Shown: positions 10,278 through 24,143 of the stretch, piece by piece
Layout of the letters: every line of letters begins with the position of its first letter
Numbering within the stretch: the stretch's first letter is position 1
NCBI RefSeq assembly: GCF_048403405.1
Contig: NZ_CP183129.1
Reading direction: 5' to 3' (one strand)
Source: Escherichia coli
Lineage (GTDB): Bacteria; Pseudomonadota; Gammaproteobacteria; Enterobacterales; Enterobacteriaceae
Length of the DNA stretch: 64,000 nt
Notes under the pieces: generated by a model
Databases searched by the model: none
What the model was told of the DNA's origin: nothing
Seen by the model: only the letters and a program-made list of their open reading frames with translations
Translations under genes and position numbers: made by a program

Positions 10278-10313
10278 AAAATCAATATAAACAGCCCCTC
10301 CGGAGAGGGGCTG
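10278..10313 (-). terminator. Intrinsic terminator (CAGCCCCTC-4nt-GAGGGGCTG plus U-rich tail on the minus strand)
   Basis: Perfect 9-bp GC-rich stem followed on the minus strand by TTTATATTGATTTT. Confidence 0.6.
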
Positions 10314-10615
10314 GAGAGTGGCGCTATGTGCCATTGCATGGTGCCGGGTGCCTCCCGGTGAATTCAGTACCAGCACCTGAATCCGCGATTATCCCATATA
10401 CCTACTCGCTGATTGCCCCTCCGCACAGGGGGATTCACCATGCCAGTTTCTTTTAACAAACTCCCCGCAAACCAGACAACAGTCAACCGCCTGAATTGTG
10501 AAGTATTTAAAAATTTCTCCCGCTAACTGATACCCGGCTAACAGTCTGGCGTTTTCTTTTTCAGCAACGGGAAAGCAACAACCACCACACCCACCAGCCG
10601 CCCATTTACCACAAA

Positions 10616-13960: not shown

Positions 13961-14116
13961 TTACTCCTCAGGTTCGTAAGCTGTGAAGACAGCGACCTCC
14001 GTCTGGCCGGTTCGGATTCGTACCTCGCAGAGGTCTTTCCTCGTTACCAGTGCCGTCACTATGACGGTTAAACAGATGACGATCAGGGCGATTAACATCG
14101 CCTTTTGCTGCTTCAT
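13961..14116 (-). CDS. hok: Hok-family type I toxin (51 aa)
   Basis: Below the track cutoff; my translation is MKQQKAMLIALIVICLTVIVTALVTRKDLCEVRIRTGQTEVAVFTAYEPEE, close to HokC/Gef. The leader matches the R1 hok layout (GCTTGAGGCT..., GATTAGCCTCTTAC...AAGGAGAAG). Confidence 0.9.
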   Translation of the reverse strand: MKQQKAMLIALIVICLTVIVTALVTRKDLCEVRIRTGQTEVAVFTAYEPEE

Positions 14117-14165
14117 AGCCTGCTTCTCCTTGACCTTTCGGTCCGTAAGAGGCTAATCTCTATGT

Positions 14166-14240
14166 GTCGCATAGATATGGCCTCAGATTAATGTTAAGCG
14201 TCTTGCAGGACGCGTAATGTTAACTGGGGCTTTTCTCTAT
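14166..14240 (+). ncRNA. sok: Sok-like antisense RNA (approximate ends)
   Basis: Plus-strand promoter TTGACC(14130-14135)-18-TAATCT(14154-14159), antisense to the hok leader. A GCGTC/GACGC hairpin and a U-rich tract follow. Confidence 0.5.
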
Positions 14241-14374
14241 CTGCCTTTTGGTGTTCATGCCTGAGACAGATAGCCTCAAGCACCCGCAGTTATTCTACTT
14301 AACTAAGATTTCCCCGCAAACCGTTTTTGTCCGGCACAGTAAATATCCAACTAAACCAATGGCGTTCGCTGTAT

Positions 14375-22282: not shown

Positions 22283-22575
22283 TTTATTCACAGGTGAGGT
22301 AGAGTGCGTGCGCCGGACACGGATAAGAATCCGGCACTGACAGTTTACTAAAAAGGATATATCCCTGAAAAGTCAGGGCATAACACGAAAGCGCCCGGCG
22401 AAGTTAGTCTCTCTGTATAGGTCGTCGTTAAATTTAATTCGATCGTGCGCTTCCGGTTGTGGCAATCCGCGAAATGGCGCGGCGGTAAGTATGGCTGGGG
22501 TTTCCTCCATTGCTCCAGAAAATGCACCGGGTTGTCAGGTTGACCATACGCTTAAGTGACAGCCCCGCCACAATA

Positions 22576-22634
22576 CCCATGTGTAGTCTTTGGTGGCATC
22601 AGTTCTACTCCGTGACTGCTCTGCCACCCTTTTT
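22576..22634 (+). ncRNA. dicF: DicF sRNA homologue (ftsZ-targeting in K-12)
   Basis: TTTGGTGGCATCAGTTCTACTCCGTGACTGCTCTGCCACCCTTTTT versus K-12 TTTGGCGGTATCAGTTTTACTCCGTGACTGCTCTGCCGCCCTTTTT (from memory). The terminator stem keeps its pairing through compensatory changes. The 5' end is approximate. Confidence 0.85.
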
Positions 22635-22828
22635 AAAGTGAATTTTGTGATGCGGTGAATGCGGCTAAGCGCACGCGGAACAGTTAAAACCAAAAACAGT
22701 GTTATGGGTGGATTCTCTGTATCCGGCGTTAATTGTTAACTGGTTAACGTCACCTGGAGGCACCAGGCACCGCATCAACAAAGTTCACTTCGGTGATGAA
22801 AGGTAAGAGAAAATGTTGAATGTAGCTA

Positions 22829-22857
22829 TTGAAAACCAGAACGGGTGGAATTATAGT
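22829..22857 (+). promoter_or_regulatory. Candidate sigma70 promoter TTGAAA-17-TATAGT for the antisense-RNA/Rha module
   Basis: Good hexamers with an exact 17-bp spacer. Confidence 0.45.
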
Positions 22858-22917
22858 GCACCTGCACCTCATAAAACGGGTGCCGGGCGTGGAAACCCGG
22901 AATTCAATCAAGCGCAT

Positions 22918-22940
22918 AACCGCGCTCAGGCGGTTTTTTT
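22918..22940 (+). terminator. Intrinsic terminator/attenuator (AACCGC-6nt-GCGGTT + T7)
   Basis: 6-bp stem followed by 7 T residues, ~75 nt downstream of the candidate promoter and inside the annotated track ORF 22813..23667. Confidence 0.6.
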
Positions 22941-22970
22941 ATGCGTCAAGCACAGCCACATTCAGATTAT

Positions 22971-23050
22971 GGTGGGGCGTGCAGGGCAGCTGCAAGGCTG
23001 GCCGGATTCTTGGTTGACCGGTATTTCCACCCCTGTACGCCTCACCACCC
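22971..23050 (+). ncRNA. c4-like antisense RNA (P1/P7 immI type), candidate
   Basis: A 15-bp closing helix (22971-22985 with 23032-23046) encloses two hairpins. The loop sequence TCTTGGTTGA is perfectly complementary to the Rha SD region at 23090-23099. Confidence 0.6.
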
Positions 23051-23109
23051 TTATGGTCGTGGAAAACCTTGGTGGTGAGTTATTAATACTCAACCAAGAG
23101 GCTGCCATT

Positions 23110-23667
23110 ATGGCTACTATCCCTACCCTTTCTCACCCTGACGTAACCATCGAAAATGGTCGCGCTGTCACTACGTCTGTTGCGGTTGCAGAGTTCTTCC
23201 GCAAAATGCACAAGGACGTTCTGCGCAAAATTGAAACGCTAGAATGCTCTGAAGATTTTAACGAGCGCAATTTTACGCCCGTTACCTACACCGACGCCAA
23301 AGGCGAAAAACGCCCCATGTACCAAATCACCAAAAACGGCTTCGTTTTCCTGGTGATGGGGTTCACAGGTAAAAAAGCCGCAACTTTCAAAGAAGCCTAC
23401 ATCGCTGAGTTCGATCGCATGGAGGAAGAACTGCGCCAGAATAACGCCCCGTCTCCCGACAAAATGATTCACGGGGACGGACGCACCCTGGTTATCCGTC
23501 TCGACGAACACGGCAATATCAAATTCACTGAAACCGTTCCTGACGGCGCAATGGTCTGCACCCTGGATACCTTCCGGTTTTATCTGGAGAAACAAGGATG
23601 GACTCTTGTAAACCGGAGCGCAATTAAAAATATGACTGTGGAGCAATTGCTAAAAATTCATTGTTGA
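23110..23667 (+). CDS. Rha-family phage regulatory protein / antirepressor-like (185 aa)
   Basis: VTTSVAVAEFFRKMHKDVLRKIETLECS...YTDAKGEKRPMYQITKNGFVFLVMGFTGKKAATFKEAYIAEF is a Phage_pRha-type N-terminal domain. Start at Met-100 of the track ORF, SD AAGAGG. Confidence 0.85.
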   Translation: MATIPTLSHPDVTIENGRAVTTSVAVAEFFRKMHKDVLRKIETLECSEDFNERNFTPVTYTDAKGEKRPMYQITKNGFVFLVMGFTGKKAATFKEAYIAEFDRMEEELRQNNAPSPDKMIHGDGRTLVIRLDEHGNIKFTETVPDGAMVCTLDTFRFYLEKQGWTLVNRSAIKNMTVEQLLKIHC

Positions 23668-23677
23668 GGACGCGATA

Positions 23678-23866
23678 ATGGAAACGTCACTACCAAACGT
23701 TAATACGTCTGACGGGTGCTTTAATATTGGTGTTCTGCTCAGTAACAGGGATTTCACCGAGGATGCAATCAATATGAGAAAATATGAACCCTACCTGCTG
23801 AATGACAATTCCATACTCTCCAGAATTGCCCTTCTTAAACTCGGTATTTTCGGAGAGTGGCGATGA
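23678..23866 (+). CDS. dicB: DicB cell-division inhibitor homologue
   Basis: LPNVNTSDGCFNIGVLLSNRDFTEDAIN parallels K-12 DicB LPNVNTSEGCFEIGVTISNPVFTEDAIN. Confidence 0.85.
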   Translation: METSLPNVNTSDGCFNIGVLLSNRDFTEDAINMRKYEPYLLNDNSILSRIALLKLGIFGEWR

Positions 23867-24066
23867 ACACATTATTCGTACTCATTCTGACTGTACATCT
23901 CAATACTGGTGAGTCGCTTGATGCAATCACCGGCATGTACAACTCAATGAAAGAATGCATGGCTGCCGCAGCGGAACAGAAAATTCCCGGCAACTGTTAT
24001 CCGGTCGATAAAGTTATTCACATGGACAATAACGAAATCCCGGCGGGGCTTAAAACAGCACCGTAA
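23863..24066 (+). CDS. ydfD: YdfD-like small membrane (lysis-associated) protein
   Basis: ECMAAAAEQKIPGNCYPVDKVIHMDNNEIPAGL parallels K-12 YdfD. ATGA overlap with the dicB stop. Confidence 0.75.
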   Translation: MNTLFVLILTVHLNTGESLDAITGMYNSMKECMAAAAEQKIPGNCYPVDKVIHMDNNEIPAGLKTAP

Positions 24067-24143
24067 TTAATATCCGGTTTCATTTTTATATGCCAGCAAT
24101 GGCAGGGATTTGTTCACCCTTAAATCTGTAATGAGGTTTATCA

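What the first reader, a model, noticed from the sequence alone, without database searches (positions are those of the whole stretch)
22829..23667. P1 immI-like antisense-RNA switch (c4-like RNA with duplicated target boxes) in front of a Rha-family antirepressor-like gene, inserted between dicF and dicB
Track ORF 22813..23667 looks protein-like only from Met-100 (23110, SD AAGAGG). Its first ~300 nt run through an intrinsic terminator (22918-22940) and a tightly folded element, so I read them as RNA, not protein.

Seen directly:
- GGTGGGGCGTGCAGG (22971-22985) pairs with CCTGTACGCCTCACC (23032-23046), 15 bp including two G.U pairs.
- This helix encloses hairpin CAGC-TGCAAG-GCTG (22987-23000) and hairpin GCCGG-[ATTCTTGGTTGA]-CCGGT (23001-23022).
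- If only the inner 12 bp form, the 3' side leaves an ACCA tail. That would make a tRNA-minihelix-like RNase P substrate.
- The loop sequence TCTTGGTTGA (23008-23017) is perfectly complementary to TCAACCAAGA (23090-23099), which covers the Shine-Dalgarno of the Rha gene.
- The unpaired TTTCCAC (23024-23030) is complementary to GTGGAAA (23059-23065).
- A second copy of both boxes lies upstream, between a good promoter candidate (TTGAAA-17-TATAGT, 22829-22857) and the terminator: GTGGAAA at 22889-22895 in a hairpin loop, and TCAATCAAG at 22905-22913 (one G.U when paired with the loop).

This order (promoter, b1/a1, processed antisense RNA, b2/a2, antirepressor-type gene) is the architecture established for P1/P7 immI. 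There the c4 RNA is matured by RNase P and blocks icd/ant translation.

In Qin as I recall it, dicF and dicB are separated by less than 200 bp. Here the whole module sits inside the pL-type operon of a DicA/DicC-immunity lambdoid prophage, so it looks like an acquired second immunity layer.
Basis: partly seen in the sequence, partly recalled or inferred. Interest (0 to 1): 0.75.

Follow-up and report, generated by a model that had tools for sequence, protein, structure and literature searches.

The report
P4-type RNA immunity cassette in prophage
This is a real but already well-known kind of phage switch: a small antisense RNA (C4/CI type), with decoy and target copies of its binding sites, sits in front of a Rha regulator gene, and the same DNA is also kept open as a protein reading frame, as in satellite phage P4.

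Summary
Rfam finds a C4 antisense RNA at 22965-23052 (78 bits, cut-off 45) and an isrK/seqA-type leader at 22864-22940 (69 bits, cut-off 50). Across 18 related modules the helices covary, and the loop and single-stranded boxes match their own upstream and downstream targets far better than those of other loci (p<=5e-5). The 865-bp module (22788-23652) is absent from K-12 Qin and lies between dicF and dicB.

Two corrections. First, the closest relatives are P4 immunity (PLE-seqA-CI-seqC inside the nested eta/kil genes) and the Gifsy-1 isrK-STnc1160-anrP locus, rather than P1 immI. Second, "RNA, not protein" is wrong as an either/or. In 111 unique relatives the frame of the 284-aa ORF carries 5 in-frame stop triplets where about 120 are expected; the other two frames match expectation. 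That region is Pfam Phage_ASH, as in P4 Eta.

Most likely, transcripts from the internal promoter make the RNAs and keep the 185-aa Rha silent. Transcripts from upstream are probably translated from ATG 22813 and escape the block.

This is a new member of a known kind, of modest interest.

The parts
22788..23652 (+). 865-bp module absent from K-12 Qin. It is flanked by AAAGTTCA (left) and AAAATTCA (right) and sits about 25 bp upstream of the dicB start.
   Evidence: blastn of the window against JM109 Qin: 22302-22787 and 23653-24100 align, and the interval between them has no counterpart. In one search, 263 of 5426 E. coli genomes hold at least 80% of 22560-23900.
22813..23667 (+). Long ORF of 284 aa, Phage_ASH (aa 14-109) plus Phage_pRha (aa 120-205). 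It is the counterpart of P4 eta. It starts upstream of the internal promoter, and its stop codon lies in Qin-type flanking DNA.
   Evidence: Pfam. PHROG 995 covers both halves. BLASTP against P4 Eta gives 36% identity, E 2e-16. PGAP annotates it as WP_000935596.1. The frame is kept open by selection.
22829..22857 (+). Internal sigma-70 promoter TTGAAA-17-TATAGT, in the position of P4 PLE and P1 P1c4 (P51b). Its -10 element ends 7 nt before the leader RNA model start, as in P1.
   Evidence: Promoter scan, 10/12 and best in 3.2 kb. The P1 annotation and alignment place P1c4 in the same position.
22864..22940 (+). IsrK / P4 seqA-type leader RNA. It has two hairpins, then an intrinsic terminator (22918-22935 plus T-run). 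It carries the upstream target copies GTGGAAA (22889-22895, in the second hairpin loop) and TCAATCAAG (22904-22912).
   Evidence: Rfam isrK 69.2 bits against a gathering score of 50. All 6 pairs of the first hairpin covary. Terminator. Complementarity.
22965..23052 (+). C4 / P4 CI-type antisense RNA. The predicted mature form is 22971-23049 (79 nt, 3' ACC). The recognition boxes are the 12-nt hairpin loop (pairing part 23007-23017) and the single-stranded TTTCCAC (23024-23030).
   Evidence: Rfam C4 78 bits against a gathering score of 45. Fold z = -5.05. The 17-bp helix and hairpin 1 are 100% paired, with 11 pairs changed on both sides. Ends are inferred from the annotated P1 c4.
23059..23065 (+). 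Downstream target GTGGAAA for the single-stranded box (P1 a2-type; part of P4 seqC).
   Evidence: Exact 7-nt complement. Own-versus-cross duplex energy is -9.5 against -6.3 kcal/mol, p<=5e-5.
23071..23079 (+). GGTGGTGAG, complementary to the 3' strand of the C4 closing helix (23041-23049). It is a candidate alternative helix that would place the 23059-23065 box in a hairpin loop.
   Evidence: 9-nt complement. The helix is 92% paired in 18 modules, with 4 pairs changed on both sides. P4 has GCTATCGCC / GGCGATAGC. Function unknown.
23090..23100 (+). Downstream target TCAACCAAGAG for the loop box. It overlaps the SD AAGAGG (23096-23101) of the short Rha start (P1 b2-type; P4 seqC).
   Evidence: 11-nt complement, -15.2 kcal/mol. 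Own-versus-cross energy is -13.1 against -7.1 kcal/mol, p<=5e-5.
23110..23667 (+). Short form, a 185-aa Rha-family regulator starting MATIPTLSHPD, in the position of P4 kil. This is the product whose translation the C4 RNA would block.
   Evidence: Pfam Phage_pRha 2.2e-31. The start and N-terminus are conserved in 73 of 95 unique loci and in P4 (MATTLTPSHPE).
22578..22629 (+). dicF sRNA (context: left neighbour in the DicA-controlled early operon).
   Evidence: Rfam DicF 61.1 bits against a gathering score of 48.
23678..23866 (+). dicB cell-division inhibitor (context: right neighbour, 11 nt after the long ORF's stop).
   Evidence: Pfam DicB 1.3e-32. PGAP annotation.

Best explanation
The region is a P4-type RNA-immunity cassette embedded in a nested pair of genes, acquired by a Qin/DicA-type lambdoid prophage between dicF and dicB.

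Shown here:
- An internal promoter (22829-22857) precedes an IsrK/seqA-type leader that ends in an intrinsic terminator (22864-22940).
- A C4/CI-type RNA follows (22965-23052).
- Its loop and its single-stranded box each have one matching site in the leader and one downstream.
- The downstream loop site covers the SD of a 185-aa Rha protein (ATG 23110).
- The whole RNA region also lies in a reading frame (ATG 22813, upstream of the promoter) that selection keeps open and that is in phase with Rha.

Inferred from P1, P4 and Gifsy-1:
- In the lysogen the internal promoter fires constitutively. Most transcripts stop at the terminator and give a ~77-nt IsrK-like RNA.
- Read-through transcripts are cut by RNase P at G22971 and trimmed to a ~79-nt C4 RNA.
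- This RNA pairs with 23059-23065 and 23090-23100 on read-through transcripts. That occludes the SD of short Rha.
- As in P4, the untranslated RNA is then probably open to Rho-dependent termination, so Rha and the downstream dicB stay off.
- The leader copy of the boxes acts as a second cis target, as P4 seqA does. As free IsrK-like RNA it acts as a decoy that titrates C4, which would explain why IsrK overexpression turns on AnrP in Gifsy-1.
- When the DicA-controlled early promoter upstream is derepressed, ribosomes start at ATG 22813 and translate through both RNA genes and the target sites. This gives the 284-aa Ash-Rha protein and makes this transcription insensitive to the RNA block, as shown for P4 eta.
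For: Family membership:
- Rfam C4 and isrK both score above their gathering scores in the window.
- The same tandem is found in 16 of 17 related loci scanned (SW-37, the 17th, has C4 but no isrK hit above cut-off), including P4 itself, where C4 is CI and isrK is seqA.
- P1 c4 is hit by the same C4 model.

Structure:
- In 18 modules, 94.7% of cells are paired and 18 pairs are changed on both sides. None of 500 shuffles reaches this, and slid controls give 35-47% pairing.

Specific recognition:
- The set has 17 different loops and 12 different single-stranded boxes in 19 loci. Each matches its own upstream and downstream sites.
- Own-locus duplexes are 3-6 kcal/mol better than cross-locus duplexes, permutation p<=5e-5 for all four box-target classes.
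- A scan of viral contigs gives 111 unique relatives with 34 loop boxes, 16 single-stranded boxes and 48 combinations.

Signals:
- Promoter and terminator are confirmed.
- The SD is covered by the loop target.

Nested ORF:
- In 111 unique regions, stop triplets fall 5 / 231 / 414 by phase. Under a null that preserves column composition, 120 / 237 / 407 are expected.
- The frame is open in 108 of 111 regions against 36 expected.
- The 34 loop variants contain 28 stop triplets, none of them in frame.
- The ATG of the downstream gene is in phase in 73 of 95 loci.
- P4 Eta is a full-length Phage_ASH match and aligns with the window ORF.

Published mechanism:
- PMC10111431 summarises P4 (Forti 1999): the promoter lies inside eta, CI/seqA cause termination, Kil is the truncated product, and Eta translation from the upstream promoter prevents termination.
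- PMC4825925 shows for Gifsy-1 that the readthrough transcript is translationally silent and that IsrK in trans activates anrP 139-fold.
- The same paper reports a stable processed RNA (STnc1160) downstream of IsrK, and compensatory mutations G28/C162 and G31/C159. Their spacing fits the box pairing seen here.
Against: - No expression data exist for this locus. Processing, translational block, termination and decoy action are all carried over from P1, P4 and Gifsy-1.
- The Gifsy-1 authors explain their data differently, by IsrK opening an inhibitory structure so that a small ORF (orf45) is translated and couples to anrP. They also found that constitutive STnc1160 did not relieve IsrK toxicity (PMC4825925).
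- Selection for an open frame shows that translation through the region matters, not that the Ash part has a function as protein.
- No Rho-dependent terminator can be identified computationally downstream.
- 'Antirepressor' for the Rha protein is annotation-level only (PHROG and Pfam names). Its target repressor is unknown.
- The prophage may be cryptic, in which case the switch may be idle.
Confidence: 0.8

Rival explanations
1. This is a P1 immI-like, RNA-only switch. The first ~300 nt of the annotated ORF are never translated, and the long ORF is an annotation artefact caused by a stop-free structured RNA.
For: The RNA elements are real. A strong SD and a conserved start exist at 23110. The Phage_ASH 'protein family' could in principle be a translation of conserved RNA.
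Against: In-frame stops are about 24-fold depleted relative to a composition-preserving null, while the other two phases sit exactly at expectation. The hypervariable loops hold 28 stop triplets, all out of frame. Length variants of the downstream leader differ by multiples of 3 in the fused class, +54 or +57. The ORF start always lies upstream of the internal promoter. In P4 the homologous eta ORF is reported as translated from the upstream promoter (PMC10111431).
Confidence: 0.08
2. Gifsy-1-type activation as published. The readthrough RNA folds into a translationally inert structure in which the leader pairs in cis with the C4 region. Free IsrK-like sRNA opens it, a small upstream ORF (here the 45-aa ORF 22941-23078) is translated, and Rha translation follows by coupling. 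The C4-like RNA is not the repressor.
For: Genetic and structural data for Gifsy-1 (PMC4825925). The window has a 45-aa ORF starting right after the terminator T-run. MFE folding of the whole leader pairs the isrK part with the C4 part.
Against: An ATG directly after the T-run exists in only 15 of 111 unique relatives, and only 6 give a 45-aa ORF. That phase is open in 14 of 111, against 108 of 111 for the Ash frame. The window's orf45-like stop (23076-23078) is 32 nt before ATG 23110, so there is no overlap for coupling. This model does not explain why the downstream boxes covary with the C4 boxes and cover the SD.
Confidence: 0.12
3. Ordinary protein gene. This is a 284-aa Rha-family regulator, as annotated by PGAP, and the RNA-family hits and complementarities have no function here.
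For: PGAP annotation. PHROG 995 and Pfam domains cover the entire ORF.
Against: Two Rfam families score above their gathering scores in the canonical order. Compensatory changes occur in helices, which a protein constraint does not predict. Six boxes co-vary in three-way sets. An intrinsic terminator and a promoter lie inside the ORF.
Confidence: 0.02
4. Intact-looking but idle remnant. The cassette was carried into a defective Qin-like prophage by recombination and no longer controls anything of consequence.
For: The right junction cuts into the 3' end of the Rha gene, so its last codons and stop come from Qin-type flank. Qin-type elements are often cryptic.
Against: All six boxes still match, the loop to SD-box contact over 11 nt with one G.U pair. 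The promoter, terminator, SD and both starts are intact. The arrangement is present in 263 E. coli genomes. The window prophage still has replication, exonuclease, xis and int genes.
Confidence: 0.1

Closest known systems
Satellite phage P4 immunity region (PLE promoter, seqA, CI RNA with seqB, seqC; nested genes eta and kil)
   Same: - The same two Rfam models hit P4 in the same order: isrK on seqA and C4 on CI.
- It has the same 88-nt C4 form with a 12-nt loop.
- Both boxes are duplicated upstream and downstream, with the loop target over the SD.
- It has the same Phage_ASH reading frame through the RNAs, starting upstream of the internal promoter and in phase with the downstream start.
- The first codons after the regulated start are homologous: MATIPTLSHPD here, MATTLTPSHPE in P4.
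   Different: - The regulated product here is a 185-aa Rha-domain protein, not the 65-aa Kil.
- P4 has a 107-nt spacer between seqA and CI, against about 25 nt here.
- The host element is a lambdoid Qin-type prophage, not a P4-like satellite. There is no primase, sid, delta or psu.
- The box sequences differ, so the specificity differs.
- The Rho-dependent site timm could not be assessed.
Salmonella Gifsy-1 isrK-orf45(STnc1160)-anrP-isrJ locus (Hershko-Shalev et al. 2016, PMC4825925)
   Same: - An IsrK-family terminated leader sRNA is followed by a stable processed RNA that Rfam classifies as C4, then an antirepressor-type gene.
- The readthrough mRNA is translationally silent in Gifsy-1.
- The published compensatory pairs G28/C162 and G31/C159 have the spacing expected for leader-box to C4 single-stranded-box pairing. 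This is my inference from the Rfam consensus and the Gifsy-1-like phage SW-37.
   Different: - The Gifsy-1-like form (SW-37) has a shorter C4 (83 nt, 8-nt loop). It has no Ash frame fused to the antirepressor. Instead a small ORF ends on the antirepressor start (ATGA).
- isrJ follows in SW-37, but no isrJ is found in the window.
- The published mechanism is trans-activation by IsrK through orf45 coupling, not repression by the C4-like RNA.
Phage P1/P7 immI (c4 RNA, a1 b1 / a2 b2 sites, icd-ant operon)
   Same: - It has the same C4 family (P1 68.8 bits).
- It has the same order: promoter, two upstream sites, c4, two downstream sites with the second over the SD (P1 annotation).
- The promoter is at the same distance from the leader.
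- Specificity resides in the two short boxes, as in P1/P7 heteroimmunity (established knowledge, Citron and Schuster 1990).
   Different: - The P1 leader is Rfam c4-a1b1 (51 bits) and only sub-threshold for isrK (35 bits). The window's leader is isrK-type.
- P1 has an 11-nt loop and an 86-nt model match.
- P1 has no open frame through the RNAs: 2 stops in phase.
- The P1 regulated genes are icd then ant1/ant2. Here it is a Rha protein with no icd.
- P1 has a C1 operator at the promoter. Nothing equivalent was tested here.
Ash-Rha 'antirepressor' genes of lambdoid phages (ST64B Sb41, Stx-phage Ant, phage 1720a-02 antirepressor; PHROG 995)
   Same: They have the same Phage_ASH + Phage_pRha architecture with the isrK + C4 tandem inside, at 67-85% nucleotide identity over the RNA region.
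   Different: In those phages the module lies in the rightward early operon, between cro/cII-type and replication genes. Here it lies in the leftward, DicA-controlled operon between dicF and dicB. Many of those ORFs extend 150-350 nt further upstream.

Membership tests
Rfam C4 antisense RNA (RF01695) | Covariance-model score at or above the curated gathering score, over the full-length model | tested here: met
   78.0 bits against 45, model positions 1-87 of 87, E 1.4e-13
Rfam C4 antisense RNA (RF01695) | Long closing helix enclosing two hairpins, supported by compensatory changes | tested here: met
   The 17-bp helix and hairpin 1 are 100% paired in 18 modules, with 11 pairs changed on both sides. 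None of 500 shuffles reaches the observed values.
Rfam C4 antisense RNA (RF01695) | The second hairpin loop and the following single strand are complementary to sites in the downstream mRNA, including its ribosome-binding site | tested here: met
   11-nt and 7-nt complements at 23090-23100 and 23059-23065. Matching is locus-specific across 19 loci.
Rfam C4 antisense RNA (RF01695) | Maturation from a longer transcript by RNase P | not testable with these tools
   There is only positional homology to the annotated mature P1 c4, which gives 22971-23049 with a 3' ACC.
Rfam isrK / P4 seqA-type leader (RF01394) | Score at or above the gathering score; two hairpins plus an intrinsic terminator; located directly upstream of C4 | tested here: met
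   69.2 bits against 50. Terminator confirmed. The same tandem occurs in 16 of 17 related loci, including P4.
P4-type immunity cassette (nested eta/kil) | An ORF that starts upstream of the internal promoter, reads through seqA-CI-seqC and is in phase with the regulated downstream start | tested here: met
   ATG 22813 lies 16 nt before the -35 element. There are no stops up to ATG 23110. Phage_ASH is found in both proteins. BLASTP E 2e-16. Selection keeps the frame open.
P4-type immunity cassette (nested eta/kil) | Immunity acts by premature Rho-dependent termination (timm) when the first gene is not translated | not testable with these tools
   There is no reliable predictor of Rho sites. Bicyclomycin or rho-mutant experiments are needed.
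P4-like satellite phage | Satellite gene set (alpha primase, epsilon, sid, delta, psu) | tested here: not met
   The neighbours are dicF, dicB, ydfD-like, exonuclease, xis and int on one side. On the other side are a DicA-like repressor, cro-like and cII-like genes and replication genes. Only the cassette is P4-like.
P1/P7 immI operon | Leader of the c4-a1b1 type (RF03163) | tested here: not met
   There is no RF03163 hit in the window at the gathering score. P1 has one at 51 bits.
P1/P7 immI operon | Regulated genes are icd followed by translationally coupled ant | tested here: not met
   The regulated ORF is Phage_pRha. There is no icd-like ORF between C4 and it.
Gifsy-1 isrK-orf45-anrP-isrJ locus | A small ORF over the C4 region whose translation couples to the antirepressor | tested here: inconclusive
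   A 45-aa ORF exists (22941-23078), but it stops 32 nt before ATG 23110. It is present in only 6-15 of 111 relatives.
Gifsy-1 isrK-orf45-anrP-isrJ locus | isrJ sRNA downstream of the antirepressor | tested here: not met
   There is no isrJ hit in the window. It is present in the Gifsy-1-like phage SW-37.
Pfam Phage_pRha (PF09669) | Domain score above the gathering score | tested here: met
   108.7 bits against 29.9, residues 21-106 of the short form.

The most novel reading that the evidence does not exclude
In the P4-like branch of the C4 family the RNA-immunity cassette is obligatorily dual-coding. Six short boxes diversify into dozens of specificities (at least 34 loop and 16 single-stranded variants, 48 combinations). 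Every variant is nonetheless constrained to keep one reading frame open. This would make 'translate through the antisense RNA gene and its targets' a universal override of RNA immunity, not a P4 peculiarity. In this prophage the override would wire DicA-controlled early transcription to production of an Ash-Rha regulator and DicB, while the internal promoter keeps both silent in the lysogen. A conserved alternative helix (23041-23049 with 23071-23079) may be part of that switch.
Probability: 0.45. Interest if true: 0.45.

Novelty: new member of a known kind. Interest (0 to 1): 0.28.

Why it matters
For annotation: this locus is currently annotated only as one 284-aa 'Rha family' gene. In fact it holds a promoter, a terminator, two small RNAs and a second, regulated start. 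The same applies to hundreds of E. coli and Stx-phage genomes.

For biology: the cassette sits in front of an antirepressor-type gene and the cell-division inhibitor dicB. It is therefore a plausible second, RNA-based layer on prophage induction and DicB toxicity.

The family-wide evidence has broader use. The RNA genes and their variable recognition boxes evolve under a simultaneous 'no stop codon' constraint. This gives a clean natural example of overlapping RNA and protein constraints. It also reconciles three literatures (P1 c4, P4 CI/eta, Gifsy-1 IsrK) that describe the same module in different terms.

Tried and rejected
- RNAcofold of the mature C4 with the downstream leader or with IsrK gave zero interaction gain. 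Loop-loop contacts are pseudoknots that the method cannot form, so this says nothing either way. Box-level duplex energies were used instead.
- Longest contiguous complementarity, own against cross locus, separated poorly because many boxes share partial sequence. It was replaced by duplex energies with a permutation test.
- The MAFFT alignment A1 is in register for the helices but not for the downstream boxes. Column-wise covariation of the intermolecular pairs was therefore not attempted with the pair-counting tool.
- The genome-contig scan with the Rha protein returned only 9 loci, 4 of them irrelevant. The phage BLAST and a structure-anchored pattern scan of viral contigs were far more productive.
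- Forti et al. 1999 (PMC94026) is not held. The P4 eta/kil mechanism is cited through PMC10111431 and my own knowledge.
- Gifsy-1 itself is not in the phage collection. SW-37 was used as a proxy, so mapping the published mutations onto the boxes is an inference.
- The PGAP 'pseudo dicB fragment' at about 22699-22782 suggested a dicB duplication at the insertion site. No similarity to the dicB 5' region was found, and the stretch is simply the Qin sequence upstream of dicB.
- A flat one-third expectation for stop phases was replaced by a null that preserves column composition. The result became clearer, not weaker.
Full report
**1. What is in the sequence**

  - The closing helix is 17 bp (22970-22986 with 23031-23047).
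  - It encloses the hairpins 22987-23000 and 23001-23022.
  - The loop TTCTTGGTTGA (23007-23017) is complementary to 23090-23100, which overlaps the SD AAGAGG (23096-23101) of ATG 23110.
  - TTTCCAC (23024-23030) is complementary to GTGGAAA at 22889-22895 and 23059-23065.
- The element folds at -47.4 kcal/mol, z = -5.05.
- The promoter TTGAAA-17-TATAGT (22829-22857) is the best sigma-70 match in 3.2 kb. The terminator at 22918-22935 plus T-run is confirmed.

**2. Database identity**

- A gathering-threshold Rfam scan of the window gives three relevant hits:
  - C4 antisense RNA at 22965-23052 (78 bits, cut-off 45);
  - isrK at 22864-22940 (69.2 bits, cut-off 50);
  - DicF at 22578-22629.
- The long ORF 22813-23667 has Phage_pRha at residues 120-205. 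Unexpectedly, it also has Phage_ASH at residues 14-109, exactly the part that forms the two RNAs.
- PGAP annotates the full 284-aa ORF in an identical E. coli genome.

**3. Relatives**

- blastn against phage genomes finds the RNA region in 147 records at 67-85% identity. These include Stx phages, ST64B, mEp460, P88, and Klebsiella, Yersinia and Vibrio phages.
- Rfam finds C4 in all 17 fetched loci. In 16 of them an isrK-type leader lies upstream of it, about 25 nt away in most; SW-37 has C4 but no isrK hit above the cut-off.
  - This includes P4 itself, with a longer 107-nt spacer. There the C4 hit is the CI RNA and the isrK hit is the seqA region.
- P1 c4 is hit by the same C4 model. Its leader is the curated family c4-a1b1 and is only sub-threshold for isrK.
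- The P1 record annotates the order promoter, a1, b1, c4, a2, b2 (over the icd SD).
  - The window has the same order.

**4. Covariation**

- On an alignment of 18 modules, 94.7% of cells are paired and 18 pairs are changed on both sides.
  - No shuffle out of 500 reaches the observed values, and slid controls fall to 35-47% pairing.
  - The 17-bp helix and hairpin 1 are 100% paired.
- The recognition boxes are hypervariable, with 17 loops and 12 single-stranded boxes in 19 loci. Each box changes together with both of its targets.
- Own-locus duplexes beat cross-locus duplexes, with permutation p<=5e-5 in each class:

| Box to target | Own locus (kcal/mol) | Cross locus (kcal/mol) |
|---|---|---|
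| loop to downstream | -13.1 | -7.1 |
| single strand to downstream | -9.5 | -6.3 |
| loop to upstream | -12.1 | -7.9 |
| single strand to upstream | -9.5 | -6.4 |

- This is strong comparative evidence that the RNA recognises both site pairs.

**5. RNA or protein? Both**

- In the 11 loci of the P4-like subgroup first collected, the frame of the downstream ATG has no stop from the leader to the ATG. The other frames have 0-7 stops.
- A structure-anchored pattern scan of viral contigs gave 111 unique regions, with 34 loop boxes, 16 single-stranded boxes and 48 combinations.
- Stop triplets were counted by phase relative to the 'Ash' frame, whose codon phase is ATT|ATG|GTG at the C4 5' end. Expectations come from a null that shuffles each alignment column independently:

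| Phase relative to the Ash frame | Observed stops | Expected |
|---|---|---|
| 0 (in frame) | 5 | 120 +/- 8 (minimum 99 in 300 shuffles) |
| +1 | 231 | 237 |
| +2 | 414 | 407 |

- The frame is open in 108 of 111 regions against 36 expected.
- The 34 distinct loops contain 28 stop triplets, none in frame.
- So selection specifically keeps this frame open.
- P4 Eta is a full-length Phage_ASH match at 82 bits. It aligns with the window ORF at 36% identity, E 2e-16, including the junction ...QEAAIMAT....
- PMC10111431, summarising Forti et al. 1999, states the following for P4:
  - CI is encoded within eta.
  - A constitutive promoter lies inside eta.
  - Its transcript is terminated through CI/seqA interactions.
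  - Kil is the truncated product.
  - Full-length Eta is translated only from an upstream promoter, and that translation prevents termination.
- The window has the same layout. ATG 22813 with an SD lies 16 nt upstream of the -35 element.
- The window's 45-aa ORF (22941-23078) resembles Gifsy-1 orf45 in size. It is not conserved, however: 6-15 of 111 relatives have it, and that phase is open in only 14 of 111.

**6. Context**

- Relative to K-12 Qin, window 22788-23652 (865 bp) is extra DNA, flanked by AAAGTTCA / AAAATTCA.
  - It starts 25 nt before ATG 22813.
  - The Rha stop codon lies in Qin-type flank.
  - dicB starts at 23678.
- 263 of 5426 complete E. coli genomes hold at least 80% of 22560-23900.
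- In other lambdoid phages the module lies in the rightward early operon, between cro/cII-type and replication genes. Here it lies in the DicA-side operon that continues into dicB, a ydfD-like gene, exonuclease, xis and int.

**7. Mechanism**

Shown here:
- family membership;
- structure;
- specific box-target matching;
- occlusion geometry at the SD;
- the internal promoter and terminator;
- the nested ORF under selection;
- the insertion.

Inferred from P1, P4 and Gifsy-1:
- Constitutive transcription from 22829-22857 gives a terminated IsrK-like RNA and, by read-through, a precursor.
- RNase P and 3' trimming release a ~79-nt C4 RNA (22971-23049, by homology with annotated P1 c4).
- This RNA pairs with 23059-23065 and 23090-23100 and blocks initiation at ATG 23110. 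Rho-dependent polarity probably follows.
- The leader copy is a second target or decoy.
- Gifsy-1 data fit this reading (PMC4825925):
  - the readthrough mRNA is silent;
  - IsrK in trans activates anrP 139-fold;
  - a stable processed STnc1160 lies downstream of IsrK;
  - the compensatory pairs G28/C162 and G31/C159 fit.
- The authors' own model is activation through orf45 coupling. They also report that constitutive STnc1160 did not counteract IsrK.
- Transcripts from the upstream, DicA-controlled promoter would be translated from ATG 22813 through the whole cassette and so bypass the block, as for P4 eta.

**8. Novelty**

- Both RNAs are curated Rfam families.
- The isrK + C4 tandem upstream of Bro/antirepressor-type genes has been noted for P4-like and PICI elements (PMC10111431) and for APSE phages (bioRxiv 10.1101/2020.03.17.996009).
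- No paper found places it between dicF and dicB.
- The locus is a new member of a known kind.
- The family-wide demonstration that the Ash frame is kept open across dozens of box specificities goes somewhat beyond what I found described. So does the candidate alternative helix 23041-23049 with 23071-23079, which is 92% paired with 4 pairs changed on both sides and has compensatory versions in P4 and P1.

**9. Limits**

- There are no expression data.
- Relatedness of the sequences inflates shuffle-based statistics, although phases +1 and +2 serve as an internal control.
- The function of the Rha protein is known only from annotation.

Noticed in passing
window 23041-23049 and 23071-23079: The 3' strand of the C4 closing helix (CTCACCACC) is complementary to GGTGGTGAG, which lies between the two downstream target boxes. 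Forming this alternative helix would place the GTGGAAA box (23059-23065) in a hairpin loop, just as the leader presents its own copy. P4 has GCTATCGCC / GGCGATAGC, P1 has CCTGCCACC / GGTAGCAGG, and one viral variant has TCCATCACC / GGTGATGGG. The helix is 92% paired in 18 modules, with 4 pairs changed on both sides. Its function is unknown.
   Followed up: partly
L016 (phage P88) about 1613-2064, and 21 other viral loci (e.g. L051, L071, L102, L056, L053): In 22 of 95 unique loci the downstream ATG (N-termini MANRKQ... or MATTPTQ...) is out of phase with the Ash frame. Yet the Ash frame stays open for another 289-1114 nt, overlapping the annotated downstream gene (the 'derepression protein' in P88) in a different frame. 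This could be overlapping genes or mis-annotation.
   Followed up: no
L048 (9739, 10395, 11051), L038, L039, L074, L086, L091: Some viral contigs carry two or three complete C4 modules in tandem, about 656 bp apart (869 bp in L091). Each has a different loop and single-stranded box combination and is followed by a short MATVPTSP... gene. These look like arrays of RNA-immunity cassettes with distinct specificities.
   Followed up: no
window about 22699-22782: RefSeq PGAP annotates a 'DicB, incomplete' pseudogene here in the identical E. coli 7/2 genome. The stretch is simply the Qin sequence that precedes dicB in K-12. It shows no similarity to the dicB 5' end in the window, so it is probably an annotation artefact and not a duplication.
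   Followed up: yes
window 23653-23667: The last four codons (KIHC) and the stop codon of the Rha ORF lie in DNA shared with K-12 Qin. So the right-hand recombination junction falls inside the 3' end of the acquired gene. A 7-of-8 direct repeat (AAAGTTCA / AAAATTCA) marks both junctions.
   Followed up: partly
window 14114-14285 (-) and 10283-10472 (-): Rfam hits to sok antitoxin RNA (106.7 bits), implying a hok/sok-type toxin-antitoxin locus, and to the sRNA STnc100 (132.4 bits). Both lie elsewhere in the window.
   Followed up: no
Pfam PF10554 (Phage_ASH), matched at window 22852-23139: The Pfam 'Ash protein family' corresponds base-for-base to the isrK/seqA + C4/CI + target region. Phage records annotate fragments of it as separate 'ash family protein' genes (e.g. 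ZX5, L019 1599-1712). Annotation pipelines thus name the RNA cassette as protein and miss the RNAs.
   Followed up: partly
L021 (phage GER2) 2130-2213; L020 (phage SW-37) 2306-2380: Other small-RNA families lie just downstream of the regulated gene in relatives: sRNA-Xcc1 in GER2 (75.7 bits) and isrJ in SW-37 (101.7 bits). The window has neither.
   Followed up: no
window 23066-23101: On its own, the downstream leader folds so that CCUUGG (23066-23071) pairs with part of the loop target and SD (CCAAGAGG). This suggests an intrinsic partial SD-sequestering hairpin in addition to the antisense block. Its conservation was not tested.
   Followed up: no
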